Origin: Chloroflexota bacterium
GTDB taxonomy: Bacteria > Chloroflexota > Dehalococcoidia > UBA2247 > RBG-13-53-26
DNA length: 64,000 bases
Direction of reading: 5' to 3'
Assembly (NCBI GenBank): GCA_003551705.1
Contig: PUNJ01000020.1
Location: 17,128 to 81,127 of the forward strand
Positions 24,765-45,875 of the stretch are shown here, in pieces. The notes under the pieces were generated by a model, which did no database searches, was not told the DNA's origin, and was given only the letters and a program-made list of their open reading frames with translations. The translations under genes were made by a program, and so were the position numbers. Position 1 is the stretch's first letter. Every line of letters starts with the position of its first letter.

Positions 24765-25083
24765 GTAGTTGCCTTGGATGGCCTAGGGTCAGTGAGGAAA
24801 ACGCTTAGTGCCGATTACGCCTAAAGAACAAAGCCGCATTGTGGGCGTCGCCCACAGCAATAGATGGCGATCTGAGATCGCAGACCGAACCAACCGGGCA
24901 GATTCCCTAGACCAGCACCATACGGTTTGCCCATTATCCACATCATCTCTTACTCCGTTGTCGCGATTGATGCCTGGCATCAATTCAACGGTGCATTTAG
25001 CAATGCGATTACACCTTTCTTGATGAGGGCCTTTCCATAGGTCCAAGATTGATCCCGACAGCCAAGTGAAGGAGGGAATTACG

Positions 25084-27077: not shown

Positions 27078-27276
27078 TAAGGAAGGTAAATAACCAAATA
27101 CGCTGTACAGCTCCCTGGTCAGAGGTTGACCATTCTACCGAGGAGGTAGAATAATGGTTTAGTTTTACCAGGTCACTCACGCCGGAGACGTGAGCCTGGC
27201 CCGATCAAGGTGAATCAGGGCATGTGACCTAGTGGCCAGCAGTGAAGAAGAGGAGCATATCTTAAAGGAGGTCAAT

Positions 27277-28641
27277 GTGAGCGTCGGAGAAGATCCAGAA
27301 AAGAATGTTCCGCCCGGAAGAGAATTTCAATTGCCCACAGACCCCGATTATCTCTGGGACGGGTTAAAGGACATAGGACTGGGCATAAGATGGGTAGCCG
27401 AAGTTAAGAAGGCCGACATGCAAATCGAGCTTTCCGGACCCAAGTGGGAGTACAAGAGCTACACCATCATGGAAGTGATTGAAGAGCCTGGCATAGTAAG
27501 GGACGGCATAGTAACACTGGTTGGTCCCGATCTGCACGAGGTGGAACCCGGTACTTCGGTGCCCTCTGCCTGGGACATCAAGGTCTACGGCCCTGGCATC
27601 GGCCAGCGGCATCGCGAGTATCTGGAACGGCAAATGGCCATGGCTCTGCACGGAATTGAGGGATACATGGCCTTTGGTTCTTTCCAGGCACCCTGGATGA
27701 GGATCAGCAAGGCTGTGGCGGGGCGGCTTACGTTCGCCAAGCTGTGCCAGATAATCCATGCTTATATCAAGACCGTGGTCCCTCAAGTGGAAGCCATGGA
27801 GTTCCGCTGGATAATCGGCGCCCCCGAAATCGGCGGCCTCGACCTGATAGAGCCGTTATATCGCAGGGGTATTCAAAGGTTGAAGGCCCAGGAACAGTCG
27901 GTTGCCCTTGAAGACGAAGACGTCGACCTGTTCTACGGGTGTACAATCTGCAAATCACTGGCCCCCAACCACGTATGTGCCATTACCCCCAGCCAGATAC
28001 CCTACTGCGGCATTCTGTCCTACAACGGCGCCCAGGTTACGGTCGAGCTGGACCCCGAGGGCTACATATTCCCGATGCCAAAGGGCGAGTGCAAGAACTT
28101 CCTTCAGGGCAGCTACTCCGGCGTTGATGCAGCAGTGTATGAAAGATCAAACCATCAGGTAAAGAGGGTTAATATCTTCAGCGCTATCAGGTACCCCACC
28201 ACCAACTGCGGATGCTTTGAGGGCGCTGCATTCTATATACCTGAAGTAGACGGTCTCGGCGTTGCCATCCGTCGCTATATCGGTGTGACACCTCTCGGCA
28301 TAAAGTTCTCCCGTTTGGCAGGTACCATATCAGGCGGCTCGCAGAACCATGGCTACAAAGGCGTGTCGATGCGCTCAATGCAAAGCAAGACTTTCCTCAA
28401 GGGAGACGGGGGCTGGAACAGAATCGTCTGGATGCCCGCTGACCTGAAAGAAGAAGTAGCCGAATACATTCCCGAAGAGATCTACGACAAAATAGCCACC
28501 GAGCAGGACACCATCGACCCGGTCGAACTCAAGGAGTTCCTGAAGAAGAAAGGTCACCCCGTAGTTGAGAAATTCTGGAAAAATGGTGAACCTCAATCGT
28601 TGAATGTACCTCTCCCAGGAGGGGAGTGGGCCGACGAATAA
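27277..28641 (+). CDS. cdhC: acetyl-CoA synthase (A-cluster) subunit, archaeal CdhC type; copy 1
   Basis: A-cluster ligand pattern C-x2-C-x8-C-x9-C followed exactly 67 residues later by the Ni-binding C-G-C (TNCGCFEG). About 455 aa, as in archaeal beta subunits lacking the bacterial AcsB N-domain. GTG start 5 nt after AAAGGAGG. Confidence 0.8.
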   Translation: MSVGEDPEKNVPPGREFQLPTDPDYLWDGLKDIGLGIRWVAEVKKADMQIELSGPKWEYKSYTIMEVIEEPGIVRDGIVTLVGPDLHEVEPGTSVPSAWDIKVYGPGIGQRHREYLERQMAMALHGIEGYMAFGSFQAPWMRISKAVAGRLTFAKLCQIIHAYIKTVVPQVEAMEFRWIIGAPEIGGLDLIEPLYRRGIQRLKAQEQSVALEDEDVDLFYGCTICKSLAPNHVCAITPSQIPYCGILSYNGAQVTVELDPEGYIFPMPKGECKNFLQGSYSGVDAAVYERSNHQVKRVNIFSAIRYPTTNCGCFEGAAFYIPEVDGLGVAIRRYIGVTPLGIKFSRLAGTISGGSQNHGYKGVSMRSMQSKTFLKGDGGWNRIVWMPADLKEEVAEYIPEEIYDKIATEQDTIDPVELKEFLKKKGHPVVEKFWKNGEPQSLNVPLPGGEWADE

Positions 28642-28656: not shown

Positions 28657-28872
28657 ATGGGAGATAACCTTTGCGGAGTATGTCAGAAGAAGGAAACAGA
28701 AGCTACATGCAAAGTCTGCGGCGTGGCACTGTGCGCTGAATGTGTCCGTGAAGTCAGCGTAGAAAATCCAGGCCAACGGGTGCTTGGTGTGCTGACCAGT
28801 CCTCTCAAGTCAGGCACGAAGAAACAGAAGGTCTGTGCGACCTGTATGAAGGAAGTCGATTTCGTCGATTAG
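28657..28872 (+). CDS. 4xCxxC zinc-ribbon miniprotein; copy 1
   Basis: 71 aa with CxxC pairs at residues 6/9, 18/21, 26/29, 60/63. GGGAGG SD. Conserved paralogue at 32907..33128 in the same relative position. Confidence 0.65.
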   Translation: MGDNLCGVCQKKETEATCKVCGVALCAECVREVSVENPGQRVLGVLTSPLKSGTKKQKVCATCMKEVDFVD

Positions 28873-31517: not shown

Positions 31518-32885
31518 ATGGCTGTACCTGAAGAAGAAGCAGTCTCTAAATTGCCGGCCGGAAGGATCTTTCAGTTACCCACAGATCTGGACCATCTCTG
31601 GGACGGCCTGGACGACATAGGCCTGGGACTGCGATGGCTCAGCGAGGTCAAGAAAGCCGATATGCACCTTGAGTTGGGGGGGCCCAAATGGGACTACAAG
31701 ATGTTCTCCGTCTTCTACATTGAAGAGGATCCTGAGAAGGTCCCGGATGGCCAGGTCAAGCTCATAGGGCCGGATATCCCAGAAGTCAAGCCGGGAACTT
31801 CCTTGCCGGGGGGATTCACCATCAGGATCTACGGCAAAGAACTTACACAAGCCCATCAGGGTTATGTTTCACGCCAGATTGGCACCGCCCTTCAGGGTCT
31901 TGAAGGTTTCATGCTCTTCGGCTCACCTGACAGTCTCTGGATAAGGATAAACAAAGACGTGGCCGACAGGCTCACCTTTGCAAAGATATCGCAATTTTGT
32001 TATGCGACTGCCAAGACCCTGGTACCTCAAGTTGACGCCGTGTCCTTCTTCTGGGTAATAGGAGATCCGGAGGTAGGCGGTGTAGAGATGGTCAACCCCG
32101 TTTTCGAATGGGCTTCCGAGAAGTTTAAAGTCATCAGTGCCAAGGAACTGTACGACGACGAAGATGTAGACATGTTCTACGGCTGCACCATCTGCAAGTC
32201 ACTGGCGCCTAACCACGCATGCGTGCTGACACCCAGCGCCCTGCCTTACTGCGGTATCATCGGCTATGACTCTGCCAAGGTAACAGCCGAAATGGACCCC
32301 GAGGGCTACGTATTCCCCATCCCCAAAGGCGAATGTCTCGACCCAGAAGCTGGTCACTATACCGGCGTGGACGAGGCTATCTGGGAGAAATGCAATCATT
32401 TGGTGAACCGCGTCCACATCTACAGCAGTATCAAGTACCCGACCACGAATTGCGGGTGCTTCGAAGCCGCTTCCTTCTATATTCCTGACGTGGACGGCAT
32501 CGGTCTCGCCATGAGACGTTATACGAAAATGACCCCGCTTGGCATCAAATTCTCAACCCTGGCTGGCACCATTTCCGGGGGTGCCCAGAACCATGGGTTC
32601 AAGGGGCTTTCCATAGCAGGTATGTCCAGCCCGAACTTTCTCAGAGGAGATGGTGGCTGGAACCGGGTTGTCTGGATGCCGTCCGACCTCAAGGAGGAAA
32701 TAGCGGATGTCATACCTGAGGAGCTTTACGACAAGTTAGTCACGGATGAAGAGACTGTGGATGCCGCTGAGCTCAAGCAATTACTTATTGAACGCGGACA
32801 CCCTATAACGGAGGTGTTCTGGAAGAACGGGGAACCGCAACCGTTGCAGATACCTCTTCCAGGCGAGGACTGGCCCGAGGAATAA
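31518..32885 (+). CDS. cdhC: acetyl-CoA synthase (A-cluster) subunit, CdhC type; copy 2
   Basis: Same C-x2-C-x8-C-x9-C ... CGC (TNCGCFEA) arrangement. Paralogue of 27277..28641. GGGGG SD. Confidence 0.8.
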   Translation: MAVPEEEAVSKLPAGRIFQLPTDLDHLWDGLDDIGLGLRWLSEVKKADMHLELGGPKWDYKMFSVFYIEEDPEKVPDGQVKLIGPDIPEVKPGTSLPGGFTIRIYGKELTQAHQGYVSRQIGTALQGLEGFMLFGSPDSLWIRINKDVADRLTFAKISQFCYATAKTLVPQVDAVSFFWVIGDPEVGGVEMVNPVFEWASEKFKVISAKELYDDEDVDMFYGCTICKSLAPNHACVLTPSALPYCGIIGYDSAKVTAEMDPEGYVFPIPKGECLDPEAGHYTGVDEAIWEKCNHLVNRVHIYSSIKYPTTNCGCFEAASFYIPDVDGIGLAMRRYTKMTPLGIKFSTLAGTISGGAQNHGFKGLSIAGMSSPNFLRGDGGWNRVVWMPSDLKEEIADVIPEELYDKLVTDEETVDAAELKQLLIERGHPITEVFWKNGEPQPLQIPLPGEDWPEE

Positions 32886-32906: not shown

Positions 32907-33128
32907 ATGTCGGAGAATCTTTGTGGAGTTTGCCAGAAGATGGCCGCTCAATGGACCTGCCAGGAGTGCAAAGTGGCACTATGCGAGCAGTGTGTAAAGG
33001 AAGTGCGCATAGAGTCCACCAGACCAGGTCAGAGGATGATGGGAAGGGTTACGAGCCCCATGAAGTCAGGGGTGAAGAAGATCAAGGTCTGTGACAAGTG
33101 CTTCAGGGAAAAGGAGTTTCTGGGATAG
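32907..33128 (+). CDS. 4xCxxC zinc-ribbon miniprotein; copy 2
   Basis: 73 aa. Cys positions conserved with the 28657..28872 miniprotein. Confidence 0.65.
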   Translation: MSENLCGVCQKMAAQWTCQECKVALCEQCVKEVRIESTRPGQRMMGRVTSPMKSGVKKIKVCDKCFREKEFLG

Positions 33129-33141: not shown

Positions 33142-35628
33142 ATGATGGATGATAACAAGTATGCTCAAGTCGGCCCTCATCGGGTTGACATTGGTGAGGT
33201 AGTCCGCGACCCACGCGGTATTGAGGATATCGTCAAAGAAATCCTTGAAAAGGACTTCGTTGAGAGTCGCTACGCTCAGTTTGGAGCCCACCTTAATATT
33301 CTGCCTGACGCTGCTGACATTGCCGACTGGGACCATACACTCCTGTCCAGGTATGAACCACTGTATATGCTTTCGGCGCATATTTGCAGGGATTGCACTT
33401 CAGGTCCCTGTAACCTGAATAGTGCCAGCGGGGTGTGCGGACTGGAAGGAGATGTCCTCAAGGCAAAGCTAAGCCTCCGAAAGGCTTGTCGCGGCTGCCT
33501 GGTGCAGATGATCACCAGCCGTGATATTGTCAACTACTCACTGAAGATCTTTGGTCAGGACCACCCCTGCAGCATGGGCGAGTTGCTCACCATGTCCGAT
33601 CACTGCCCGCCCATAGGCACACTCAGCGGTATTCATGTTAAGTCGCTTAACGACTTGGACCGTGTGCTCGCCTATGCCGAATCACAGTTGAGCAAGCTCT
33701 TCCAGGCAAGCTTCACCGGCACGGGAACGGTCAACGATTTCGAGAGCATGGTCATGCACGCCGGCTCCGTCCTGCTGCTGGCCATGGGCGTGGCAGAAAT
33801 GGCCAAGGTCTCTTGTTTCGGGTTTGTTTCAGCCGCCAACCACCAGATAGACCAGCTCGACAACTTTCCGCCCGCCACCTCCGCCGTGGGATGGGCCGCT
33901 ATTGAAAAGGACAAACCCGTGGTGGCCTTCGTCGGCGACAGCTTCCTTCCGGCATGGACCGCAATCCAGCATATGCGGGAAAATGAACAGGTAGAAGCAA
34001 TTGAGGTATGCGGAGTAGGACCGGCAGCGGACGATATAATCAGATTTTATGACAAAGGCAGGGTTATCGGTCCCATGACCCGAGCGGCCCGTGCCATACG
34101 GAACGGTGTCTTTAACGTGGTAGTAGCCGGACCGGGCTGCATACCGCAAGACCTGTTCACAGAATCCGAGCGGGCCAACAGCAAGTTCATCTGGACCGGC
34201 CCCAATGGCGTAAGCAAACTCAAGGACAGAACTGACGACTCCGTCGACAAGATGGTAGCTGACTTGCTAAAGGGAGAGTCGGGAATCTGGATCAGGGATG
34301 TTGAGAAAGCCGGTCAAGTCGCCGTTAGGCTGGCAGGTTCGCTTGGTCCCAACAAGAGTGTATTCGCTCTGGACGACCAAGATGCGGCAAGGCTTGCCTC
34401 GAAGTGCTCTGAGAAGTGCGACCTGTGTTTTTACGCCTGCCCCAACAGCTTGCAGGTCCCCAAAGCTGTAAGAGGGATTGCCGGAGGAGATTGGGCAACC
34501 ATGGCCGGGTTGGAGAAGGGTTGTTATTTCTGTGGCAAGTGCGAGGAAGCCTGTCCTGAAAACGTCCAGGTCCGCGATCTTGTGGTCGCCGCTGAAAGGA
34601 AGAAGGCAGAACAAGACAACTCCGTGATGAGAGCAGGCAGAGGACCCCTCCCCCTGACTGAGATCCTCCAGTCCGCCTTCTCCATGGTCTGGGGCAATGC
34701 ACCCGGCATCGTGGTCCTGGCAGGTTGCGGCGACGCCGATCGCGATGAAATCGGCTGGTTGGCCCACGAATTGACCCGTCGCAACTGCATTGTCTTTCTG
34801 GCCGGATGCGGCGCTGCCGAAATCGCCCGCAATTACCAGGACAAGAAGGGCAAGCATATATTCGAGCTCTACACATCCTCCATTGAGCCGAGATCCCTAA
34901 TTAACTGCGGTGGATGCGCAGCGATTTCCCTGGCCAACAACATGTACATGTACGCCAGGGCTGCTGGAGGAATACCGCTATATGGTGGTATCCCAGAGGT
35001 AGGCGAGGGCTCTTTGTACACCACCTTCTCACTCTTGTTATGGGGTTCTCTGCCGGAGAGAATGCATGCTGTTGCAGCAGGCTACGCCAGACTGGGCGTC
35101 AGGGTGGTGATGGGCCCCAACTCGGGCTGGAACTGGGGCAGATATCTGCCAGGTAACCGCTACGATAGAAGCAAATGGTTCGTGTACCACGGCGATGACG
35201 GCCGCAAGCGAGAGACCGAGCCCATACCTGAGCATCTTATTATCCCTGTCGAGACCAAGGAAGAGGCCCTGACCATGATCCCGAGGACGTTCTTCAGCAC
35301 ATCGGAGATGCGGGAGGGCCGCGCCGCCCGCTTGGACTTCTTCTTCGAACTCTACAGGTTGTTCTATGGCGAGCTGCCCGAGGACTGGCAGCTCTTTATA
35401 CGCTCCCATCTTGATATACCGACCAGGCACAGGATCCGCTTGATCAAGCTGCTTGACGAGGAGTTCGGCTGGGAAGGGGCTGGCATAAAACTCAATAAGG
35501 CCAGGAACAGGGACGGCAAGTTGCTGACGCTTTCGGAATTCAATACCAGCTACGGTATGGAGCTGGGCCGGTACCACTGCCGTTTGGAGAGACTGCTGCC
35601 CAAACACCTGCGCAAGAAGGACGGGTAA
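33142..35628 (+). CDS. cdhA: CO dehydrogenase catalytic subunit-like protein, CdhA type; copy 2
   Basis: Paralogue of 28956..31445 with the same N-terminal Cys motif, ferredoxin-like insertion (KCDLCFYACP / CYFCGKCEEACP) and C-terminal Cys cluster. Start at ATG just after GAGGAGG. Confidence 0.6.
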   Translation: MMDDNKYAQVGPHRVDIGEVVRDPRGIEDIVKEILEKDFVESRYAQFGAHLNILPDAADIADWDHTLLSRYEPLYMLSAHICRDCTSGPCNLNSASGVCGLEGDVLKAKLSLRKACRGCLVQMITSRDIVNYSLKIFGQDHPCSMGELLTMSDHCPPIGTLSGIHVKSLNDLDRVLAYAESQLSKLFQASFTGTGTVNDFESMVMHAGSVLLLAMGVAEMAKVSCFGFVSAANHQIDQLDNFPPATSAVGWAAIEKDKPVVAFVGDSFLPAWTAIQHMRENEQVEAIEVCGVGPAADDIIRFYDKGRVIGPMTRAARAIRNGVFNVVVAGPGCIPQDLFTESERANSKFIWTGPNGVSKLKDRTDDSVDKMVADLLKGESGIWIRDVEKAGQVAVRLAGSLGPNKSVFALDDQDAARLASKCSEKCDLCFYACPNSLQVPKAVRGIAGGDWATMAGLEKGCYFCGKCEEACPENVQVRDLVVAAERKKAEQDNSVMRAGRGPLPLTEILQSAFSMVWGNAPGIVVLAGCGDADRDEIGWLAHELTRRNCIVFLAGCGAAEIARNYQDKKGKHIFELYTSSIEPRSLINCGGCAAISLANNMYMYARAAGGIPLYGGIPEVGEGSLYTTFSLLLWGSLPERMHAVAAGYARLGVRVVMGPNSGWNWGRYLPGNRYDRSKWFVYHGDDGRKRETEPIPEHLIIPVETKEEALTMIPRTFFSTSEMREGRAARLDFFFELYRLFYGELPEDWQLFIRSHLDIPTRHRIRLIKLLDEEFGWEGAGIKLNKARNRDGKLLTLSEFNTSYGMELGRYHCRLERLLPKHLRKKDG

Positions 35629-35631
35629 GGC

Positions 35632-36126
35632 CTAGTCGTCGTCATCTCGAGGTTCAGCCTTGACGAGATCAAGTGCCTCGAAGGGACACCTGTCGGCACA
35701 GACGCCGCAGAGATCCAGACTCTTGTCCGACCGCTTGCAACTTGGGGCATTGATTACGTGCAGGCTGCCGTTGATGACCTGGAGCACCTCAGGTACCGTT
35801 TCCCGCTTGGAGAGCCGGCCTCCTATAGTGACCGTTGTCAACGCCCTGCCGCATGCCAGCACACAGTCCCCACAGCCTGTACACCTTGTCCGGTCTATGA
35901 CATGATCAGTGCCCGGTATCCTCTCGCCCTCTCCCAGAAACCCCTTCAAGGTCTTCAAGGCATCGGCTTGTTCCGGCTCCTGAAGAGGAGGACAATCATT
36001 CAATGTCCGGTCCCGGCTGATGAGATCGAAGGCAAAGGAATAGCAGGTTGGGCAGCCGCATAGCTTGCAATTGGTCCGCGGCAGGAAGCGGTAGATGTGA
36101 AGCGGTTGGACTTCTTTCCTACTCAT
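35632..36126 (-). CDS. poly-Fe-S protein (N-terminal CxxxCxCxxC plus 2x[4Fe-4S] ferredoxin domain)
   Basis: Motifs CTGCGDCVLACG and CGVCADRCP. Start set at the ATG that overlaps the upstream stop (ATGA coupling) with a G-rich SD. Last gene of the minus-strand operon. Confidence 0.55.
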   Translation of the reverse strand: MSRKEVQPLHIYRFLPRTNCKLCGCPTCYSFAFDLISRDRTLNDCPPLQEPEQADALKTLKGFLGEGERIPGTDHVIDRTRCTGCGDCVLACGRALTTVTIGGRLSKRETVPEVLQVINGSLHVINAPSCKRSDKSLDLCGVCADRCPFEALDLVKAEPRDDDD

Positions 36127-36517
36127 GATCCGCCCCAGGCAGGATTTCGTTAAGGGGAGTCGGTGCTTTCGTCGACACTGCTGCAACGACGCCTATTAAG
36201 CTCAGACCGGCCGCAGTCATGTGCTCCACGTCCGCCAACAGGTAACCCGTGTAAAGGCTGGCCGGCATGACACCTGTGCCTGCCTCAATCGTCTTCTCTC
36301 CTCTTGCTTCAACAACGATATGGGAAACCTCGCTTCGCAACGAAATTGCTCCCCCATCGGCTAAGCCCATCTTCTTCATGTCTGCCGGCGATAATCTGAC
36401 AATGGCAGCCAGTTTCTGGTACGCATCACCCCAGCCATGCTTCTGCCTGGCAATATCTAAGTGGATGTCGCTATAAGTGAGTATCGTCAAGGGCAGTCCG
36501 TCCATTTCCGGGGTCAT
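36119..36517 (-). CDS. FwdD/molybdopterin-dinucleotide-binding-domain-like small subunit
   Basis: 132 aa, size and position typical of FwdD-type C-terminal molybdopterin-binding domains split from FwdB. GGAGGG SD. Stop/start overlaps on both sides. Confidence 0.4.
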   Translation of the reverse strand: MTPEMDGLPLTILTYSDIHLDIARQKHGWGDAYQKLAAIVRLSPADMKKMGLADGGAISLRSEVSHIVVEARGEKTIEAGTGVMPASLYTGYLLADVEHMTAAGLSLIGVVAAVSTKAPTPLNEILPGADHE

Positions 36518-37743
36518 CCCAGTCCCTCCAGAAGTCGCTGCAACACCACGGTCTCGGCTGGATACGGTCCTGCGCTGAAGCGTGTTAGGTCTGCCTTCTC
36601 GCCGTCCATACGCAGTACCGCGCCCTCGCTTTCGAGGCCGGCTACAGCAGTAGTAATCCGAATAGCCGCTCGCTCAGAGGTAAGAGTAGTGAAACTATCT
36701 ACGCAGATTATGTCCGCTTGTGAGAGCCTGGACATCAACGCCTGCGGAAATACCGCATAGGGGTCAGAGCCCACACACAGAAGGACGTCGGGAACAGCCC
36801 CTTTCACCTGCTCAGTGAAAGAGCACTCAGGTCCATGACGAACGGTTCCAGCAAAACTCACACTCCCCACAGAGCCGGTCTCCTCAAACAGCTCCCTCCC
36901 CAGGCCCATCAAATTCGGTTCCGATAACATGGGTATCACCGCAACCTTGGCCCCCTCGACAGAATTGGCCTTTGCCACCATCTCGCAAAAGACGTTGGTG
37001 TCTCCTCCCAGTGAGCGGCCCAAACCGTCACCGCAGAAAACCACAGCAAATCCCGCCTTCATGAGCAGTTCCCGGAACTGCCGGGCCTCCGGTAAGTCAT
37101 CGCCACGCTCGAGCACAGCCTCCAGAAAGGCCAGGTCGCCACCGGGCTTTAGCTTGAACTTCGGCCGGCACAGGGAGGTGAACTCGCTCTCCCGGATATC
37201 CACACTGCTGAGGACGACGTTCTTCGGTTGCCACCCTGAGGGATCGTAATCGCTGTAGCAATAATACGTGAATTTGGAAAGATGCCGCGGATGGGTGTGG
37301 GCCGGATTTGACCCCCAGTACACCAGCAGACCGGCGCTATCCTTTATGTCAAGCAGAGAACAGGAAGGGAGATTCTTCTCAAGGATGGACTTCAAAATCT
37401 CTCCAAGTCCCAGCGAGAGGCTGCTGTCCAATACGGCTCCCAACCGGCGGGCTATTTCGATGGCGGTCTTCTGTGCCTCGATGGTGGAACTCCCAAGACC
37501 GTAGATAAGCGGATTCCTTGCGTATCTAAGCAGGTGTGTTGCTTCCGTTACGGCTTCCTCCAGGGAAACGTCCCGCTCTCCCACACGCGTGCGGCCCCTG
37601 CGTGCGGGGTCTCGGCTCGAGGCAAAGAGGGCAGCTCCCCTGGCACAGATATTCTCTATAAGCTTGAGAGTACTCCCGGCCTCTATCCGGATATCATCGC
37701 AGAAACAACTGCAACCGCTGCACGTCAAGGTTATCTTGGACAT
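36514..37743 (-). CDS. FwdB-like molybdopterin oxidoreductase subunit (formylmethanofuran dehydrogenase subunit B family)
   Basis: 409 aa. N-terminal CSGCSCFCDD, i.e. the CxxCxxxCDD Fe-S motif characteristic of FwdB/FmdB. Molybdopterin-oxidoreductase-like remainder. Confidence 0.55.
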   Translation of the reverse strand: MSKITLTCSGCSCFCDDIRIEAGSTLKLIENICARGAALFASSRDPARRGRTRVGERDVSLEEAVTEATHLLRYARNPLIYGLGSSTIEAQKTAIEIARRLGAVLDSSLSLGLGEILKSILEKNLPSCSLLDIKDSAGLLVYWGSNPAHTHPRHLSKFTYYCYSDYDPSGWQPKNVVLSSVDIRESEFTSLCRPKFKLKPGGDLAFLEAVLERGDDLPEARQFRELLMKAGFAVVFCGDGLGRSLGGDTNVFCEMVAKANSVEGAKVAVIPMLSEPNLMGLGRELFEETGSVGSVSFAGTVRHGPECSFTEQVKGAVPDVLLCVGSDPYAVFPQALMSRLSQADIICVDSFTTLTSERAAIRITTAVAGLESEGAVLRMDGEKADLTRFSAGPYPAETVVLQRLLEGLG

Positions 37744-37749
37744 ATTCGT

Positions 37750-39975
37750 CTAGTAGGAAGAGCGGGCCATGGCAGCCTCTTCCAGGATGGCTGTCGGCAA
37801 CTCCTCTGCACCAATCAGGTAAATCCTGCCCTTGCCAACTCCGGCTATACGGCGCATCAGTTCAGGGTCGGCGGAGCGCTGGTTGATGCAGATGCAGGAT
37901 ATGGTGATGCCTCTACGGGCTATCAGCGCCGCCTGTCTGAGCGCATATCTTTGAGGCGATGGATGCGGCGCTGTCGCGTCACCGTCCGATATCAGGATGA
38001 TATGCTGCTTGGCCCTGCCTTTCGGGTGACGTGCCAGGAGATCGCCTGCTTTGAGCAAGCCGTAGCCGATATTCGTAAAGGCATTTTCATGCAAGTCCAG
38101 GTCAAGCACGAGCCGGCTGACGCGATGCGGGCTGGCTGTAAGATCGACCACGATGTCAGCCAGATTTGAGAAGGAGATCACAGCTACACGGTCCTTATAG
38201 GCAGTCGCCGCCAGAGACAAGGCTATAGCGCTTTCCTTAGCAAACCAGAACTTCTCCAACTGGAGCATGGTCCCGGAGAGGTCAAGCACCAGGACGATGT
38301 CCATCCTGGTCCGAATATCCTTTATGTTAACCAGGATATCCTCCCTGGTTATCTCCTGTCTGCGATTACGCATGGCTTCTCTGAGGGTATCACGGAAGGA
38401 GATGTCGCGGTACTTATCGCCGAAGCGGAAGCGCCGCGTCCCAACCACTTTGCCCTCGCCCAGGTTGAGCTTCTTGCCCGCGCCGTGCCTGCCGTAACTA
38501 TAGAGGTAGGCACCTTCCTCCAACCGGGGAGTGAGTTTCTCAAGAAGAAAATTGATACCCCGCTGGCTCAGCATCCAGCCGCTGCTGGTCCTCTCCAAGA
38601 TGTCCTCTTCCTCCAGAAACTCCAGGGTCTTGGACAGGGCCGTCTTCTCCAGGTACTCGCGAATGCGCTCTTTTTCCTTCCTGAACTCCTCCACTTCCAT
38701 AAGTAGTTCGCTGTCAAGGTTGTCCAGCTTGAAGCGCTCCGGATACAGCTCGGGCAGGCGCTCGGATATTTGCTGGTATAGCATGGCCAGTTTGGTGTCG
38801 GGAAAGCGCTTGATTCGCTTCAGAAGCAGATCAAAGGCACCATACTTGAGCGGCTTGCGGAACTTGTCTTCCCGGACTATCTCTTCAACCAGTGAAATAA
38901 CATCGTCCTTGGTAAGCGAGGCTACCTCCACTTTGCCGCCATCAAGACCGGTGACCATGGCAACTATTCCTTCGATAATGCTCTGTCTCTTCCCAGGCAA
39001 GTCGACCTCTGGGGCCAGTTTCAGTCGATGAGGCAGAGACACGACGGCTGCATCCCCGAGCATGCGGTTTTCGTCCTCCAGGCCCAGATGAGGAAGATGT
39101 GCCAGGAGTTCCGCATAACGGACCATGCCCCTGGTACCCACCCCTCGCTCCACTTCAGCATGCCGCCTCGTCTCATTCACGATTGCCACCGCCTTGCCGG
39201 TCAGTGAAGAGTCCAGTGTCAGGCCCGCCTCGGCAATCCGGGACGAGACAATCTTACACTGCTGCTCAGCGTCATCCACATAGCCAAGCCTCATCACGTC
39301 GAAGCTGTCAGTAAGGTCCAGCGGCAACGACTTCAGCGCAGATTCACTGCCCGTAGCAACGACCAGAATATCCAAGTCGATCCGCTGGTCCAGCACACCA
39401 ATGGTCAGGGAGCCGCCCTGGACGGCATACATTACGGCATTGAGGACCCTTTCGGGAATCCTGTCAATGAAATCAATGATCAGGATGCCCCGGTTGGCTT
39501 TGAGCAATTTCCCCGGCAAGAAGGCCATGGTGGAGTGCAACCCCTCACGCAGGGCTACACCAGGGTCCACATCGCCTATCAGGTCTTCTACCATGAGGCC
39601 GGCGCTTCCCTGCACATTGACGATCCTGTCGGCGGCGCAGCGGACGGCACTCTCAAGGACTTCACCGCGGTCCCTTCTCTCCAGGCACCACGGACAAGTG
39701 GGGGCTTCAGGATCACAGTTCATAGGACAACCCTTCACTACCTGTATGTCCGACAAAATGCAGGAAAGATTATTGGCCAGGCTGGTCTTGCCGCTGCCCG
39801 GTGCACCCAGGATCAGCAAATGATGGCTGCTGTAAATGCTGCTGAGCAGCGCCTGTTTCTGGGGTTCTTCCAGCCACAGACCCTGGAATACGTCTTGAGT
39901 CTTATCCGGCTTGTCTCGCAAAGTTGCCAGAATCTCTTCTCGGAGCACAATTCTAGGTTCCTTCGGCGTGTTCAA
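37750..39975 (-). CDS. ChlD-like AAA+ ATPase fused to a C-terminal von Willebrand A (MIDAS) domain, with Cys4 insertion
   Basis: Walker A GAPGSGKTS. ChlI/BchI-family collinearity (KANRGILIIDFIDR...VVATGSES). Cys4 insert CPMNCDPEAPTCPWC. C-terminal vWA DLSGTM...ISDG. The annotated start is TTG; a GTG at 39948 with an AAGGAA SD is an alternative. Confidence 0.7.
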   Translation of the reverse strand: MNTPKEPRIVLREEILATLRDKPDKTQDVFQGLWLEEPQKQALLSSIYSSHHLLILGAPGSGKTSLANNLSCILSDIQVVKGCPMNCDPEAPTCPWCLERRDRGEVLESAVRCAADRIVNVQGSAGLMVEDLIGDVDPGVALREGLHSTMAFLPGKLLKANRGILIIDFIDRIPERVLNAVMYAVQGGSLTIGVLDQRIDLDILVVATGSESALKSLPLDLTDSFDVMRLGYVDDAEQQCKIVSSRIAEAGLTLDSSLTGKAVAIVNETRRHAEVERGVGTRGMVRYAELLAHLPHLGLEDENRMLGDAAVVSLPHRLKLAPEVDLPGKRQSIIEGIVAMVTGLDGGKVEVASLTKDDVISLVEEIVREDKFRKPLKYGAFDLLLKRIKRFPDTKLAMLYQQISERLPELYPERFKLDNLDSELLMEVEEFRKEKERIREYLEKTALSKTLEFLEEEDILERTSSGWMLSQRGINFLLEKLTPRLEEGAYLYSYGRHGAGKKLNLGEGKVVGTRRFRFGDKYRDISFRDTLREAMRNRRQEITREDILVNIKDIRTRMDIVLVLDLSGTMLQLEKFWFAKESAIALSLAATAYKDRVAVISFSNLADIVVDLTASPHRVSRLVLDLDLHENAFTNIGYGLLKAGDLLARHPKGRAKQHIILISDGDATAPHPSPQRYALRQAALIARRGITISCICINQRSADPELMRRIAGVGKGRIYLIGAEELPTAILEEAAMARSSY

Positions 39976-40717
39976 TCAGCAGTTTGCACAGTTCGTCGAC
40001 AGCCACCACTGCAGGGGAGTCTTCGGGCACCCCGGTAACAGGCTTGCCCTCGATGTCCAGAAGCGCCACGGCAGGATCGAAGGGAATGAAGACAGCGATT
40101 TCAAGGCCGTTCTCACTGGCCATTTGCCCTGCTCCTGCTTTGACCTCCGAAGTCACACGGTTCATGACTGGAATAATGGCGCCGAACTCCACGGATAGCT
40201 CCTCAGCAAGCTCCTGTATCCTCTTGGCAGTCAATATCCCGTTCTTGGTCGGGTCCGCGACCACTATCATCACATCCACATCCCGCGTGGTGCGTCTGCT
40301 CAGATGCTCGAGTCCGCCGTGACAGTCTATGACGGTGAAGTCGTAGCCTTGCGACCTGCTGTCGATTACCTGTCTGATCACATGATTCACGGCACAATAG
40401 CAGCCCTCGCCCTCGGGACGGCCCATGATGATGACATCGAAATCGGGGAACTCGTGGACCGACTCATGGATGGACAGCTTGAGGTATTCCTCTTTGGCAG
40501 CCGCCACCTTGCTGCGGGCGGGAGCGTTGATTATATCTTCGCGGGCCTGGCCCACGTTCTTGTCCACGCTCACACCGAGGGCTTCGGGCAGGTTGGAATC
40601 AGGGTCGGCGTCTATGGCCAGCACCGTCCCCTGTTTTGCCAGCCTCTTGATAAGCATGCTGGACAGGAAGGTCTTGCCTACCCCACCCTTTCCGGAAATG
40701 GCGATCGCAATACCCAT
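39953..40717 (-). CDS. cooC: CooC/AcsF-family Ni-insertion ATPase (MinD/ParA fold)
   Basis: Deviant Walker A GKGGVGKT. Metal-binding CxC (EGCYCAV) characteristic of CooC. 254 aa. GAGGAG SD. Confidence 0.8.
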   Translation of the reverse strand: MGIAIAISGKGGVGKTFLSSMLIKRLAKQGTVLAIDADPDSNLPEALGVSVDKNVGQAREDIINAPARSKVAAAKEEYLKLSIHESVHEFPDFDVIIMGRPEGEGCYCAVNHVIRQVIDSRSQGYDFTVIDCHGGLEHLSRRTTRDVDVMIVVADPTKNGILTAKRIQELAEELSVEFGAIIPVMNRVTSEVKAGAGQMASENGLEIAVFIPFDPAVALLDIEGKPVTGVPEDSPAVVAVDELCKLLIEHAEGT

Positions 40718-40719
40718 AA

Positions 40720-41751
40720 CTACTCCTCAAGTACGTTGGATACAAGCTCTTCAATGAGTTTGAATGGATCGTCGTAGAATTTCGATTCAGGCGATGGTTT
40801 GATACGGCTACCAAGAGACGATGATGCAACTTTTCTAACGTCGGCTACGCTGGCCTCCAGCCTGTTCTCCAGTCTGGCCATGGCCTGGACCTTTTCGTAG
40901 AGGGACAGGGCAGCCCTGACACTGGCGGGCTGGTCCATTTCCTTTCTCCAAGGGTCCTCTCTGGTACTCCGGACCAGGGTCACTACCGAGTCCAAGACTT
41001 TATCGCTTACCTGAACACCATCTATCTTGAGGCCGTGCTTCAAAATGATGGACTTCTCCATGTCGGTGGTCTCCGGATAGCCCATCTTGACCACGTCAAA
41101 GCGGTCCAGCAGTACATCAGAAAGCTCTTCGACGCCGGCCCGCTCTCTGGGGTTCATGGTGGCTATCATCATGAAGCCGGCGGGATAGTCCACGTCGTAC
41201 GGGCCTATGGTGGCGATGCCTTCTTCCAGCACTTGAAGCAGAGCATTCTGAAGCTTTTCAGTTACCCTGTTAAGTTCGTCGAAGAAGACTATGCCCCTGT
41301 TACCCTTCAGCAGCTTTCCGGGAAGGAATACCCGGTAGTCCTGGGGTCCATACTTGAAGGCCTGGGTGGGATCTATGTCGCCGAGCAGGTCTTCAGCCGT
41401 GAGGTCGGGGGAACCCTGCAAGCGCACGAAACGCTGCTCCCCCGAGATGGTAGCCGGTGTCAGTTCCTCACCGGCCGCCGCTTTGGCCTTGCAGCGAGGG
41501 CAGACCGGCGACTGTGGATCGCAATGATAGGGGCAGTCAGCCACAACCGTTATCGGCGGCATAGCAGCAGCTATGTGTTTAGCCATGGTCGTCTTGCCGA
41601 CGCCGGGAGGGCCTTCGATGAGAGTATGGTGGCCGGCGAGCAACGAAGCCAGGATCTTGTCCTTGGCATCCTTCTGGCCGACAATGACATCCAGCATGTC
41701 ACCGCCCTCAGCAGCATACTTCAGGATCGTGTCTTTGAGTCCCTCGATCAT
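40720..41751 (-). CDS. ChlI/BchI-like AAA+ ATPase with Cys4 zinc-ribbon insertion
   Basis: Walker A GPPGVGKTT. ChlI-family collinearity (KGNRGIVFFDELNR, MIATMNP, LLDRFD). Insert CPYHCDPQSPVCPRC. GGAGGG SD. Confidence 0.75.
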   Translation of the reverse strand: MIEGLKDTILKYAAEGGDMLDVIVGQKDAKDKILASLLAGHHTLIEGPPGVGKTTMAKHIAAAMPPITVVADCPYHCDPQSPVCPRCKAKAAAGEELTPATISGEQRFVRLQGSPDLTAEDLLGDIDPTQAFKYGPQDYRVFLPGKLLKGNRGIVFFDELNRVTEKLQNALLQVLEEGIATIGPYDVDYPAGFMMIATMNPRERAGVEELSDVLLDRFDVVKMGYPETTDMEKSIILKHGLKIDGVQVSDKVLDSVVTLVRSTREDPWRKEMDQPASVRAALSLYEKVQAMARLENRLEASVADVRKVASSSLGSRIKPSPESKFYDDPFKLIEELVSNVLEE

Positions 41752-44833: not shown

Positions 44834-44883
44834 CGTGCGGAGTGTGGCACCGATATAATGGCCACAAAGCTCTGGAAGTCCGC

Positions 44884-45669
44884 ATGCTGAAAGTCAAAGA
44901 TGTCAACGCCACCTTCGCCGAAAAGGGCATTCACGTCACCCTGCCCCTGCCGGAGGAATATGAAGTCGATGCCCTGGAAATACTGCAGAAACACAATACC
45001 CCGGGCGGATACGGACTGCTCCTGAACATCAGCTACCGTGACGACTCCGGCCGGCAGGTATCGGATATCGTCTTTTGCGAAGCCAAGGTCGAAGGCAAAC
45101 GGCGGAGCCAGCAGCAGGAGATACGCCAGCCGGCAAAAGCTGACATGTTGCCTTTCAGAAACAGTGAAGGCTTCAAGAGTGATGAGGAAGCCCGTTCCTA
45201 TCTGGCCGAAGCCATGGGGCATCTTCTCAAGGACAAGGGCTATGAGCAAAGTGAGCGCGAAGGGGTGGACCTTTATTACGAGAACGACGGCCGGGGCTTT
45301 TTCCTGGCTATCGCCGTGCGATCCGACGACGAAGCCCTGGAGAAGGCCAAAAGGCTGGCCGAAATCCGCCTGAAGTACGGATTGGACCACGATTACGGGC
45401 TGCTGTTGCCGGCTTTTCAAGAGTCATTGGGGATGTCCTTGCTTAACCAGGACAAATGGATGTGGCGGAATGAAGAATTCCTGTCTTTCAACAAGATCGG
45501 CGTCTATGCCGTGGACAACTGGAATCCCAATCTGATCTATGCCTTCACAACGTATCCCAAGCCCCGGGAACTGAAGCGATATTTCATGACGACAGGCTCG
45601 CAGTGGCAGATGGTCCGGTCCCGGTATGTAGCCGGTCGCAGTCGCCGCCGCAAGGAGACAGAAGACTAA
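44884..45669 (+). CDS. hypothetical protein
   Basis: ORF of 261 aa from an internal ATG; no recognisable motif; coding-like composition. Confidence 0.4.
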   Translation: MLKVKDVNATFAEKGIHVTLPLPEEYEVDALEILQKHNTPGGYGLLLNISYRDDSGRQVSDIVFCEAKVEGKRRSQQQEIRQPAKADMLPFRNSEGFKSDEEARSYLAEAMGHLLKDKGYEQSEREGVDLYYENDGRGFFLAIAVRSDDEALEKAKRLAEIRLKYGLDHDYGLLLPAFQESLGMSLLNQDKWMWRNEEFLSFNKIGVYAVDNWNPNLIYAFTTYPKPRELKRYFMTTGSQWQMVRSRYVAGRSRRRKETED

Positions 45670-45875
45670 TCGTTTCCGGGAAGGCCCAAACCCGGAAATC
45701 TGACACCATCCGAAGAGGTACCTGAGGATCGGCCTCCTTTTCCTGCGGGTCGCGATCCCGTAACCCTCCTTAACCATCGTTTAATCCCTGGGTGTTAATA
45801 TTTTACCGAAAGGTGTTCCCTTCCTGTTACGGCCTTCGGCACTGCTGACAAAATAACCAACTCCGGAAATCTCAA

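What the first reader, a model, noticed from the sequence alone, without database searches (positions are those of the whole stretch)
35632..41751. Candidate novel metallocentre-maturation operon: ChlI-like AAA+, CooC, ChlD-like AAA+-vWA, FwdB/FwdD-like Mo/W enzyme and poly-Fe-S protein, convergent on the CODH/ACS-like modules
Seen in sequence: the minus-strand operon encodes, in order, a ChlI/BchI-family AAA+ ATPase, a CooC with the CxC nickel motif, an AAA+ fused to a vWA/MIDAS domain (ChlD architecture), an FwdB-like protein (CxxCxxxCDD), an FwdD-like small subunit and a ferredoxin-like Fe-S protein, with overlapping stop/start codons throughout. Established: AAA+/vWA pairs (BchI/BchD, CobS/CobT, CoxD/CoxE, NorQ/NorD, CbbQ/CbbO) are motors that insert or remodel metal centres, and CooC inserts Ni into CODH. 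Inference: a chelatase-like motor coupled to CooC, dedicated to maturing the adjacent CdhA/CdhC-like enzymes or the FwdB-like enzyme. As far as I know this combination is not described.
Basis: partly seen in the sequence, partly recalled or inferred. Interest (0 to 1): 0.8.

Follow-up and report, generated by a model that had tools for sequence, protein, structure and literature searches.

The report
Chelatase-like motor plus CooC for atypical ACS
The six genes are real, and they are half of a roughly 13-gene set, conserved across several phyla of anaerobes, that pairs a chelatase-type ATP motor and a nickel chaperone with an unusual, uncharacterised relative of the CO-dehydrogenase/acetyl-CoA-synthase enzyme; I found no paper describing this combination.

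Summary
Window 35632-41751 (minus strand) is one tight operon encoding:
- a ChlI-like AAA+ ATPase;
- a CooC with its CxC motif;
- a ChlD-like AAA+-vWA protein;
- FwdB-like and FwdD-like proteins;
- an Fe-S protein.

Two reciprocal context surveys, anchored on the AAA+ and on the CdhA-like protein, show these genes travel with CdhA-, CdhB- and CdhC-like genes. The set recurs in Dehalococcoidia, Syntrophales, Thermodesulfobacteriota, Nitrospinota and Spirochaetota, often interleaved in one operon.

Three corrections:
- The CdhA-like proteins are not canonical CODHs. They belong to Inoue's atypical group A-4, in which two C-cluster ligands and both acid-base residues are replaced. Only CdhC keeps a full Ni-cluster ligand set.
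- The FwdB-like protein lacks the W/Mo-ligating Cys and the catalytic His. With FwdD' and an FwdG/CFeSP-type Fe-S protein it looks like an enzyme subunit, not a chaperone or a standard Mo/W enzyme.
- More distant members of the AAA+/vWA family occur in DPANN archaea and methanogens without CooC or Cdh.

Most likely mechanism: an I/D-type motor plus CooC loads or repairs nickel in the ACS-like subunit. This is inferred, not shown. It is a new variant of a known kind.

The parts
40720..41751 (-). AAA1: ChlI/BchI-like AAA+ ATPase (343 aa), catalytically complete, with an invariant 4-Cys insert (C73x3C77...C84x2C87)
   Evidence: best PDB hit ChlI 8OSF, 3.5e-19. Walker A Lys, Walker B DE, sensor-1 Asn, Arg finger and the four Cys are present in every sequence that covers the column (80 sequences); the family is 67-83% identical across phyla.
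39953..40717 (-). CooC-type P-loop ATPase (254 aa) with the CxC metal motif; always directly downstream of AAA1
   Evidence: CooC1 3KJE, 1.4e-19, CxC aligned. (Lys10, Lys15 and CxC invariant in 50/50). (adjacency 43/49; two more visible).
37750..39948 (-). AAA+-vWA (732 aa): ChlD/BchD-like architecture. The AAA+ module is probably hydrolysis-dead (Walker B D-F) and carries the same 4-Cys insert. A helical linker with a small winged-helix-like element and a disordered stretch follows, then a C-terminal vWA domain with intact MIDAS (DxSxT...T...D)
   Evidence: AlphaFold2 model pLDDT 76.6. Foldseek best hit BchI 1G8P, then Lon, CbbQ, ChlI, NorQ/NorD complexes and vWA domains.
36514..37743 (-). 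FwdB-like protein (409 aa). The N-terminal [4Fe-4S] Cys motif is kept; the W/Mo-ligating Cys and the catalytic His are absent
   Evidence: TIGR03129, 268.5 < 327.8. (alignment to 5T5I_B: Cys118 to Gly, His119 to Leu). (family at that site: S8/C7/G4/A2; His never)..
36119..36517 (-). FwdD-like small beta-barrel subunit (132 aa)
   Evidence: (PF01568, 29.8 bits), (FwdD 5T5I_D, 0.0035).
35632..36126 (-). Fe-S protein (164 aa): the N-terminal [4Fe-4S] domain of the corrinoid Fe-S protein large subunit (AcsC/CdhE) fused to an FwdG-like 2x[4Fe-4S] ferredoxin
   Evidence: 2H9A 5e-7; 7BKB_L 4e-6; 5T5I_G 7.5e-5.
44884..45669 (+). orf279 (261 aa called): conserved companion of the ATPase module, with a PD-(D/E)xK-like fold related to AF_2093; no Pfam family
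33145..35628 (+). CdhA2: atypical CdhA (Inoue structural group A-4). C-cluster His to Asp, Cys1 to Pro, acid-base His to Gln and Lys to Arg; the other four C-cluster Cys and the ferredoxin-type Cys motifs are kept
32907..33128 (+). Small 8-Cys protein (73 aa) upstream of CdhA2
   Evidence: found upstream of CdhA-like in 26 loci. (reads into the CdhA N-terminus in L045-L049).
31518..32885 (+). CdhC2: ACS beta subunit with all A-cluster ligands (4 Cys plus the CGC motif)
   Evidence: (TIGR00316, 359.1 > 355.95).
28956..31445 (+). CdhA1: second A-4-type CdhA (53% identical to CdhA2; signature D/S/Q/R)
28657..28872 (+). Small 8-Cys protein (71 aa) upstream of CdhA1
27232..28641 (+). CdhC1: second ACS beta subunit (58% identical to CdhC2)
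25555..26124 (+). orf189: AF_2093-like small protein, paralogue of the C-terminal half of orf279
   Evidence: profile vs 2PH7, 6.3e-9; 27% identity to orf279, 9e-5.
25066..25548 (+). CdhB-like (ACDS epsilon homologue)
   Evidence: (profile vs 3CF4_G, 1.7e-19).

Best explanation
The six genes are one arm of a conserved system of about 13 genes that builds and serves an atypical enzyme related to acetyl-CoA decarbonylase/synthase (ACDS).

ATPase module. AAA1 is the active I-type ring. The AAA+-vWA protein is a D-type partner that binds ATP but probably cannot hydrolyse it. Together they would form a Mg-chelatase-style two-component motor. The vWA MIDAS site docks on an acidic residue of the target, possibly through the AF_2093-like adaptor orf279. 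CooC binds Ni at its CxC motif. ATP hydrolysis by AAA1 opens the target so that CooC can load, or reload, nickel into the A-cluster of the CdhC-like subunits.

Enzyme subunits. FwdB', FwdD' and the FwdG/CFeSP-N Fe-S protein are not chaperones. They are a catalytically altered Fwd-type redox or scaffold module of the mature enzyme, which also contains CdhA (group A-4), a small 8-Cys protein, CdhB-like epsilon, CdhC and orf189.

Shown: gene content, motif states, and conserved co-occurrence measured in both directions. Inferred: physical complex formation, nickel as the cargo, CdhC as the target, and a maturation role rather than a turnover role.
For: - Domain identities.
- I/D-type asymmetry: the two AAA+ modules are paralogues. 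AAA1 is catalytically complete, while the D-like module has Walker B Glu replaced by Phe in 41/45 with an invariant MIDAS site.
- CooC CxC is invariant in 50/50 sequences and aligns to the Ni site of CooC1.
- AAA1 followed by CooC: 43 of 49 loci by script, with two more visible.
- Cdh-like genes in 13/16 well-flanked loci, interleaved on the same strand in 20 loci, with heavily shuffled gene order across at least five phyla.
- Reverse survey: 9/12 well-flanked CdhA-anchored loci carry the ATPase genes, and none of the recovered CdhA-like sequences has the canonical His or Cys1 ligand.
- CdhC keeps every A-cluster ligand: 28/28 for the four cluster Cys, 18/18 for CGC. CdhA has lost two C-cluster ligands.
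- The stand-alone module orf279-AAA1-CooC-AAAvWA in L035, L036, L039 and L040, alongside a second complete locus in the same genome (PFIF01: L040 and L041), behaves like a trans-acting accessory module.
- Established precedent, from background knowledge and the abstracts listed: BchI/BchD, CobS/CobT, CoxD/CoxE, NorQ/NorD and CbbQ/CbbO are AAA+/vWA pairs that insert or remodel metal centres. ChlD links the motor to the substrate-carrying subunit (PMC6604950) and acts allosterically (PMC3789969).
Against: - There is no experimental or expression evidence.
- Canonical CODH/ACS matures with CooC/AcsF alone, so the need for a motor is unexplained.
- Interleaving with structural genes fits an integral subunit equally well.
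- The wider 4-Cys AAA+/vWA family occurs in DPANN archaea and methanogens without CooC or Cdh, so the motor is not intrinsically a nickel device.
- Some loci carry two CooC paralogues (L119-L121, L137), so the targets may be plural.
- The invariant 4-Cys inserts have no assigned role.
- AAA1 and AAA+-vWA score far below the curated BchI/BchD cut-offs.
Confidence: 0.5

Rival explanations
1. The AAA+/vWA pair, with or without CooC, is an integral working part of the enzyme rather than an assembly factor. It could be an ATP-driven activase that repeatedly reactivates an off-state, as CbbQ/CbbO does for Rubisco or RACo for the corrinoid protein. Alternatively it could be an energy-coupling device that drives a thermodynamically hard step. 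For example, low-potential electron injection through Fe-S clusters held by the 4-Cys inserts, or by a cluster bridging the CooC dimer, in the manner of NifH.
For: - Genes are interleaved with the structural genes in one operon in 20 loci.
- AAA1 is extremely conserved (67-83% identity across phyla), much more than FwdB' (35-50%).
- The 4-Cys motifs in both AAA+ modules are invariant.
- CooC-like also matches Fer4_NifH above Pfam's cut-off (27.8 vs 25).
- The enzyme lacks a recognisable corrinoid protein and a functional CODH site, so its chemistry must differ from ACDS.
Against: - The stand-alone ATPase modules, separate from the enzyme genes (L035-L040), look like accessory factors.
- The closest solved relative of the P-loop protein is CooC1, with the Ni-binding CxC aligned; no NifH-family chain reaches 1e-5.
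- All characterised AAA+/vWA pairs are chaperones or activases, not electron pumps (background knowledge).
Confidence: 0.2
2. The motor and CooC mature a different centre than the A-cluster. One candidate is the altered cluster in the A-4 CdhA (Asp and Pro/Ser in place of His and Cys). The other is a cofactor site in FwdB'.
For: - AAA1-CooC is immediately followed by FwdB'-FwdD'-FeS in several layouts (the window, L025, L041, L043), while AAA+-vWA sits directly before the 8-Cys gene and CdhA in many others.
- Loci with two CooC paralogues suggest two targets.
- FwdB' keeps several pterin-family motifs such as WGSNPxxxHPRH.
- The variant C-cluster site keeps four Cys, including the one that ligates Ni in canonical CODH.
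Against: - The position of the FwdB' metal ligand is not conserved (S/C/G/A), which argues against a defined Mo/W site.
- No Mo/W cofactor biosynthesis or insertion genes were seen in the loci.
- AAA1-CooC also occurs next to CdhC without FwdB' nearby (L019-L023, L032, L034). Several of these contigs are short, so this is weak evidence.
Confidence: 0.17
3. AAA1 and AAA+-vWA are the I and D subunits of a genuine class I tetrapyrrole chelatase (Co or Ni) needed for corrinoid supply. They sit next to B12-dependent enzymes for that reason only.
For: - The best NCBIfam hit for both proteins is TIGR02442 'putative cobaltochelatase'.
- Two B12-dependent acyl-CoA mutases and MeaB lie upstream in the window.
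- CobU/CobS-like genes lie downstream of the stand-alone module in L035, L036 and L039.
Against: - No CobN/ChlH-like large subunit occurs in any of about 160 loci. Every ORF of at least 900 aa in the first 80 loci was inspected.
- Scores are 105-112 bits against a cut-off of 779.
- The conserved partners are CooC and Cdh-like genes, not tetrapyrrole genes.
- The cobU/cobS adjacency is confined to one closely related lineage.
Confidence: 0.04

Closest known systems
Mg-chelatase motor BchI/ChlI plus BchD/ChlD, and the homologous CobS/CobT of aerobic cobaltochelatase
   Same: - Two paralogous AAA+ proteins. The short one is catalytically complete. The long one has a degenerate ATPase site, a linker and a C-terminal vWA domain with MIDAS.
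- The best solved relatives are ChlI and BchI.
- The insert that carries the 4 Cys aligns with the same region of ChlI.
   Different: - There is no H/CobN-type substrate subunit in any locus.
- The conserved partners are CooC and Cdh-like proteins.
- Both AAA+ modules carry an invariant 4-Cys motif that is absent from ChlI in the aligned region.
- Scores are far below the curated family cut-offs.
CoxD (MoxR AAA+) / CoxE (vWA) / CoxF maturation of the Mo-Cu CO dehydrogenase; also NorQ/NorD and CbbQ/CbbO
   Same: An AAA+ plus vWA-MIDAS pair encoded beside a metalloenzyme. The known systems act after translation on the enzyme's metal centre or active site (PMC4240915, listed; NorQ/NorD structures appear among the fold hits).
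   Different: - The target family here is the unrelated Ni-Fe-S CODH/ACS family.
- The vWA protein carries its own AAA+ module, which is D-type rather than the CoxE/NorD type.
- A CooC is an obligate neighbour.
CooC / AcsF nickel-insertion ATPases of canonical CODH and ACS
   Same: MinD-type P-loop with the signature Lys and the CxC metal site. Encoded inside cdh/acs clusters.
   Different: In characterised systems CooC/AcsF act without an AAA+ motor (background knowledge). Here CooC is almost always translationally adjacent to AAA1.
Archaeal ACDS (CdhABCDE), including Inoue et al. 2019 'structural group A-4' Ni-CODHs (PMC6344411)
   Same: - CdhA, CdhB (epsilon) and CdhC homologues; CdhC has a full A-cluster ligand set.
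- The CdhA signature D/P/Q/R is exactly that of A-4, whose representative comes from the Syntrophaceae CG2_30_49_12 genome, the same genome as locus L024.
   Different: - There are no CdhD/CdhE corrinoid subunits. Only the N-terminal Fe-S domain of CdhE survives, fused to an FwdG-like ferredoxin.
- The C-cluster site is altered.
- Extra subunits are present: an 8-Cys protein, AF_2093-like proteins and FwdB'D'.
- Inoue et al. recorded only the association with ACS beta and did not note the AAA+/vWA or Fwd-like genes.
Formylmethanofuran dehydrogenase FwdBDG module
   Same: FwdB-, FwdD- and FwdG-like proteins are encoded together. The FwdB N-terminal [4Fe-4S] motif is kept.
   Different: - There are no FwdA or FwdC.
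- The W-ligand Cys and the catalytic His are missing.
- The score is below the equivalog cut-off.

Membership tests
BchI/ChlI Mg-chelatase ATPase subunit I (TIGR02030) | Score at or above the curated equivalog cut-off (466.95 bits) | tested here: not met
   AAA1 scores 83.5 bits.
BchI/ChlI Mg-chelatase ATPase subunit I | Complete AAA+ catalytic motifs: Walker A, Walker B DE, sensor 1, Arg finger | tested here: met
   Present in every sequence covering the column, 80 family members. The closest solved structure is ChlI 8OSF.
Class I (ATP-dependent) tetrapyrrole chelatase | A large substrate-binding H/CobN subunit encoded with, or co-occurring with, the I and D subunits | tested here: not met
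   No such ORF in the loci. ORFs of at least 900 aa are RpoB/RpoC, CdhA fusions or unrelated. Whole genomes were not searched.
BchD/ChlD (TIGR02031) | Score at or above the cut-off (499.55 bits) | tested here: not met
   41.2 bits.
BchD/ChlD architecture | N-terminal AAA+ module paralogous to subunit I, then a linker, then a C-terminal vWA domain with MIDAS | tested here: met
   32% identity to AAA1 over 315 aa. MIDAS DxSxT/T/D invariant. Model and fold hits.
MoxR-type AAA+ (Pfam AAA_3, PF07726) | Domain score above the gathering threshold, and pairing with a vWA protein | tested here: met
   67.8 bits against a threshold of 27. A vWA partner is adjacent. The score is nearly equal to that for Mg_chelatase (64.2), so Pfam does not separate the two assignments.
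CooC/AcsF Ni-insertion ATPase | MinD-type deviant Walker A with the signature Lys, plus the CxC metal-binding motif | tested here: met
   GKGGVGKT and CYC, invariant in 50/50 and aligned to CooC1.
CooC/AcsF Ni-insertion ATPase | Ni binding and ATP-dependent Ni transfer | not testable with these tools
   Needs biochemistry.
FwdB, formylmethanofuran dehydrogenase subunit B (TIGR03129) | Equivalog cut-off of 327.8 bits | tested here: not met
   268.5 bits.
FwdB / Mo-W bis-pterin formate-dehydrogenase-type catalytic subunit | Metal-ligating Cys/Sec (Cys118 in 5T5I numbering, from background knowledge) and the adjacent catalytic His | tested here: not met
   Gly and Leu in the window protein. Across the family: S8/C7/G4/A2 at the Cys position, and His never.
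FwdB | N-terminal [4Fe-4S] Cys motif | tested here: met
   C8, C11, C15 and C33 invariant in 23/23, plus an extra C13.
Ni-CODH CdhA (TIGR00314), canonical C-cluster | C-cluster ligands His and Cys1-5, plus the acid-base His and Lys | tested here: not met
   His to Asp, Cys1 to Pro or Ser, His to Gln, Lys to Arg in both copies. Scores are 478 and 443 bits against a cut-off of 781.
Inoue 2019 Ni-CODH structural group A-4 | Signature D / P / C C C C / Q / R with the E and F clusters present | tested here: met
   CdhA2 reads Q-D-P-C-C-C-C-R, matching Table 2 of PMC6344411. The ferredoxin-type Cys motifs are present.
ACS beta subunit CdhC (TIGR00316) | Equivalog cut-off of 355.95 bits, and the A-cluster ligands (4 Cys plus Cys-Gly-Cys) | tested here: met
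   359.1 and 358.1 bits. Ligands are aligned to solved ACS structures and invariant in the family.
ACDS epsilon subunit CdhB (TIGR00315) | Homology to the solved epsilon subunits | tested here: met
   The single sequence scores 35.8 bits, below the 101.2 cut-off. The family profile hits 3CF4_G at 1.7e-19. It is a homologue, not an equivalog.

The most novel reading that the evidence does not exclude
The full gene set comprises A-4 CdhA, an 8-Cys protein, CdhB', CdhC, AF_2093-like proteins, FwdB'D'G', CooC and an I/D-type AAA+ motor. It could encode a previously unrecognised class of Ni-Fe-S enzyme, an ACDS/Fwd hybrid with no corrinoid protein. In this reading the AAA+ motor is an integral ATP-driven component. 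The enzyme would carry out carbonyl or acyl-CoA chemistry other than acetyl-CoA synthesis, for example decarbonylation or carbonylation of branched or unusual acyl-CoAs supplied by the co-conserved B12 mutases, in subsurface Dehalococcoidia, Syntrophales and relatives.
Probability: 0.25. Interest if true: 0.9.

Novelty: new variant of a known kind. Interest (0 to 1): 0.72.

Why it matters
- **A new pairing in nickel-enzyme maturation.** Ni-CODH/ACS is among the oldest and most studied metalloenzyme systems, and its known maturation needs only CooC/AcsF-type ATPases. A chelatase-type AAA+/vWA motor obligately paired with CooC would be a new element of nickel-cluster biogenesis. It would extend the BchID, CobST, CoxDE and NorQD principle to the anaerobic Ni-Fe-S enzymes.
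- **A defined composition for an orphan enzyme group.** The catalogued but unexplained 'A-4' CODHs now have a conserved, testable subunit list: intact A-cluster, altered C-cluster site, Fwd-like module, no corrinoid protein.
- **Ecological reach.** The system occurs in abundant uncultured subsurface anaerobes, so the enzyme may represent an unrecognised carbon-transformation step.
- **Practical use.** Anyone trying to express these enzymes heterologously would need to co-express this operon.

Tried and rejected
- **Literature.** Ten full-text searches found no description of the combination. The marine CODH survey PMC13240472 does not mention chelatase, MoxR or Fwd. Only Inoue 2019 was relevant.
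- **Tetrapyrrole chelatase reading.** Rejected: no CobN/ChlH gene in the loci, and the cobU/cobS adjacency is confined to one lineage.
- **FwdB' as an ordinary Mo/W enzyme.** Rejected on the active-site residues.
- **CdhA-like as a working CODH and target of CooC.** Judged unlikely from the ligand and acid-base substitutions.
- **orf189 as a second epsilon subunit.** Rejected: hhalign probability 0.2%. It is AF_2093-like instead.
- **orf279 as a nuclease.** The fold is PD-(D/E)xK-like, but no invariant acidic/Lys triad sits on the core strands, so a structural or adaptor role is assumed. This is not proven.
- **Internal promoters or terminators.** The scan gave nothing above chance.
- **Source names.** The cluster-member look-up gave no useful names for the ATPase or Fwd-like proteins.
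- **Not done.** I could not read model coordinates to test the geometry of the 4-Cys site.

Full report
**What is in the window**

The window is bacterial: it encodes bL25 at 52464-53069. It matches a 66.7-kb contig assembled from run SRR490150. The closest relatives of its proteins come from Chloroflexota/Dehalococcoidia MAGs.

Six minus-strand ORFs fill 35632-41751. Junctions range from an 8-nt overlap to a 6-nt gap. The scan found no promoter-like or terminator-like excess inside. The last gene ends 3 nt from the stop codon of a convergent CdhA-like gene.

**What the six proteins are**

- **AAA1** (40720-41751) hits Pfam AAA_3 (67.8 bits), Mg_chelatase (64.2) and AAA_5. In NCBIfam it hits TIGR02442 'putative cobaltochelatase' (105 bits), then BchI (83.5), all far below their cut-offs. 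Its best solved relative is ChlI 8OSF (3.5e-19), then MoxR 2R44 (1.7e-16) and BchI.
- **The second protein** is a CooC. Its best solved hit is CooC1 3KJE (1.4e-19), with the Ni-binding CxC aligned.
- **The third protein** (start revised to 39948) combines an AAA+ module with a C-terminal vWA domain. The AAA+ part is 32% identical to AAA1 over 315 residues. An AlphaFold2 model (pLDDT 76.6) shows an AAA+ module, a helical linker, a small winged-helix-like element, a disordered stretch and a vWA domain. Foldseek returns BchI first, then Lon, CbbQ, ChlI, NorQ/NorD complexes and many vWA domains.
- **The fourth protein** is FwdB-like, at 268.5 bits against a cut-off of 327.8. Its PDB hits are 8RJA and 5T5I.
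- **The fifth protein** is FwdD-like.
- **The sixth protein** (start revised to 36126) is a fusion. Its N-terminus matches the [4Fe-4S] domain of the corrinoid Fe-S protein large subunit. Its C-terminus matches the FwdG ferredoxin.

**Motif states across relatives** (on proteins taken from the fetched loci)

- AAA1: Walker A Lys, Walker B Asp-Glu, sensor-1 Asn, the Arg finger and four Cys (C73x3C77...C84x2C87) are present in every sequence that covers the column, 80 in all. This includes the distant archaeal members.
- AAA+-vWA: it keeps Walker A and the same 4-Cys insert. It has Phe in place of the Walker B Glu in 41 of 45 sequences. Its MIDAS residues are invariant. An active short subunit paired with an inactive long one carrying a MIDAS site is the asymmetry known for ChlI/ChlD (background knowledge; abstracts of PMC6604950 and PMC3789969).
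- CooC: both Lys residues and the CxC are invariant in 50 of 50.
- FwdB': the N-terminal cluster cysteines are invariant. The residue aligned to the tungsten-ligating Cys118 of 5T5I is Gly in the window and S/C/G/A across the family. The next residue is never His. FwdB' is therefore not a standard formate-dehydrogenase-type catalyst. Several pterin-family motifs do survive, so cofactor binding cannot be excluded.

**The convergent genes**

On the plus strand lie, in order: CdhB-like, orf189, an SDR, CdhC1, a 71-aa 8-Cys protein, CdhA1, CdhC2, a 73-aa 8-Cys protein and CdhA2.

- Both CdhC copies pass the curated CdhC cut-off and keep all A-cluster ligands.
- Both CdhA copies fall well below the CdhA cut-off. 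They carry Asp for the C-cluster His, Pro or Ser for Cys1, Gln for the acid-base His and Arg for the Lys.
- This is exactly 'structural group A-4' of Inoue et al. 2019. Those authors listed the group as bacterial, deep-branching, with incomplete active-site signatures and associated with ACS beta. They did not mention AAA+, vWA or Fwd-like neighbours.
- The CdhB-like family profile matches solved ACDS epsilon subunits at 1.7e-19.

**Two unknown proteins**

**Context survey anchored on AAA1**

The scan of one genome per GTDB species returned 80 loci.

- Where AAA1 is at least 60% identical (54 loci), CooC lies directly downstream in 43 of 49 loci with room for it. Two of the six scored as lacking it show CooC just past my distance cut-off.
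- Cdh-like genes are present in 13 of 16 loci with at least 9 kb on both sides.
- In 20 loci the Cdh genes are on the same strand and interleaved with the ATPase genes. One example is AAA1-CooC-CdhC-AAAvWA-8Cys-CdhA-CdhB'-orf189-FwdB'-FwdD'.
- Gene order is shuffled between lineages while the set is kept. The lineages include Dehalococcoidia, Syntrophales, Thermodesulfobacteriota, Nitrospinae/Nitrospinota and Spirochaetota. A bare AAA1-CooC pair occurs in 'Ca. Alkanophaga'.
- One lineage has a stand-alone module, orf279-AAA1-CooC-AAAvWA, behind a TetR-like gene (L035-L040). One genome (PFIF01) has both this module and a full locus.

**Reciprocal survey anchored on CdhA-like**

The metagenome scan returned 79 loci.

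- None of the recovered CdhA-like sequences has the canonical His or Cys1. Most read Q-D-[P/A/S]-C-C-C-C-R.
- Of 12 loci with at least 7.7 kb on both sides, 9 contain the ATPase genes. The three exceptions are L095, whose Fwd-like operon runs off the end of the locus, and two members of a Q-N-A...E sub-group.
- The 8-Cys protein precedes CdhA in 26 of the first 80 loci, and again in most loci of the second survey. It reads into the CdhA N-terminus in one lineage.
- In the Dehalococcoidia-type loci the two-subunit B12 mutases and the SDR are conserved upstream.

**Limits of the association**

AAA1 relatives at 47-58% identity occur in Woesearchaeota, Undinarchaeota, Micrarchaeota, Methanobacteriota and Methanosarcinales. 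They are followed by, or fused to, a vWA domain, and have no CooC or Cdh nearby. Relatives at 56-63% identity in Hydrothermarchaeota, other archaea and two Clostridia-type MAGs pair only with AAA+-vWA. So the 4-Cys AAA+/vWA pair is an older, more general device. Coupling to CooC and Cdh is a property of one clade.

**Interpretation**

The evidence supports a functional unit, not a chance juxtaposition. I commit to the following model.

- AAA1 and AAA+-vWA form an I/D-type motor.
- The motor docks on the enzyme through the MIDAS site, possibly through orf279.
- Together with CooC it loads or repairs nickel in the A-cluster of CdhC.
- FwdB'D' and the FwdG/CFeSP-N protein are redox or scaffold subunits of the mature enzyme.

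Confidence is about 0.5. The steps shown are gene content, motif states and co-occurrence. Complex formation, the cargo, the target and the timing are inferred.

The main rival, at about 0.2, is that the motor is an integral ATP-dependent activase or energy-coupling part of the enzyme. A different target (the variant CdhA cluster or FwdB') has about 0.17. A true tetrapyrrole chelatase has about 0.04, because no H/CobN subunit was found in any locus.

**Novelty**

Ten literature searches found no description of a ChlI/ChlD-like pair with CooC, or of Fwd-like subunits with A-4 Cdh enzymes. AAA+/vWA maturation motors and CooC are each well known, so this is a new variant of a known kind. The enzyme it serves is uncharacterised and could prove more novel than the chaperone.

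Noticed in passing
window 28657-28872 (+) and 32907-33128 (+): Two paralogous small 8-Cys proteins (71 and 73 aa; CxxC-x7-CxxC-x3-CxxC...CxxC) are encoded between each CdhC and CdhA gene. The same gene precedes CdhA-like in 26 loci across phyla. It reads into the N-terminus of CdhA in L045-L049, a Rosetta-stone sign that it is a CdhA-bound subunit.
   Followed up: partly
window 35632-36126 (-): The 'poly-Fe-S protein' is a fusion of the N-terminal [4Fe-4S] domain of the corrinoid Fe-S protein large subunit (AcsC/CdhE) with an FwdG-like ferredoxin. No other part of CdhD/CdhE is present in the cluster.
   Followed up: partly
window 19417-24672: MeaB (minus strand) and two sets of two-subunit B12-dependent acyl-CoA mutases lie just upstream of CdhB-like. 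The large subunits are at 20574-22175 and 22648-24249, the B12-binding subunits at 22191-22601 and 24256-24672. The mutase and SDR genes are conserved upstream of the Cdh-like genes in related metagenome loci (L098-L102, L105).
   Followed up: partly
window 6971-18933 and 42902-61761: The whole window is an acyl-CoA metabolism island. It holds at least four family-III CoA-transferases, a PaaK-like ligase, a thiolase with an HMG-CoA-synthase-like gene, a VOR-type 2-oxoacid:ferredoxin oxidoreductase, two benzoyl-CoA-reductase/2-hydroxyacyl-CoA-dehydratase-like pairs, and a butyryl-CoA:acetate CoA-transferase fused to a GNAT domain.
   Followed up: no
L119-L121, L129, L130, L137 (metagenome loci): Some layouts carry two CooC paralogues. 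One precedes CdhC and the other follows AAA1 and precedes FwdB'. This hints at two separate metal-insertion targets.
   Followed up: no
L144, L146, L149, L151, L154, L159, L160: A sub-group of CdhA-like proteins has the signature Q-N-A-C-C-C-C-E. It showed no AAA1, CooC or AAA+-vWA nearby, even in the two loci with long flanks. L133, with the same signature, does have them.
   Followed up: no
L052 13257-15056; L036 142-1923; L039 6207-7934; L035 8-790 (truncated): An amidohydrolase lies beside the AAA+ modules in two unrelated lineages. The L052 protein matches the Pfam adenine-deaminase C-terminal and amidohydrolase domains. The delta-proteobacterial ones were judged adenine-deaminase-like by eye from their N-terminal sequence only. 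Unexplained.
   Followed up: no
L035 7736-9019; L036 8737-9264; L039 14891-16264: CobU-like genes, and CobS-like genes in L035 and L039, lie downstream of the stand-alone orf279-AAA1-CooC-AAAvWA module, which sits behind a TetR-like regulator. They were identified by eye from the sequence and occur in one closely related lineage only.
   Followed up: partly
L059 9980-12466; L064 9938-12139; L063, L075: Methanobacteriota and DPANN archaea carry a 4-Cys AAA+ of this family, fused to or followed by a vWA domain, with no nickel-enzyme genes nearby. The ancestral role of this AAA+/vWA family is unknown.
   Followed up: partly
L004, L006, L008, L013, L014, L016: In several Dehalococcoidia genomes the cluster lies a few kb downstream of rpoB/rpoC. 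These were identified by eye from the N-terminal sequences of the ORFs of at least 1,200 aa.
   Followed up: no
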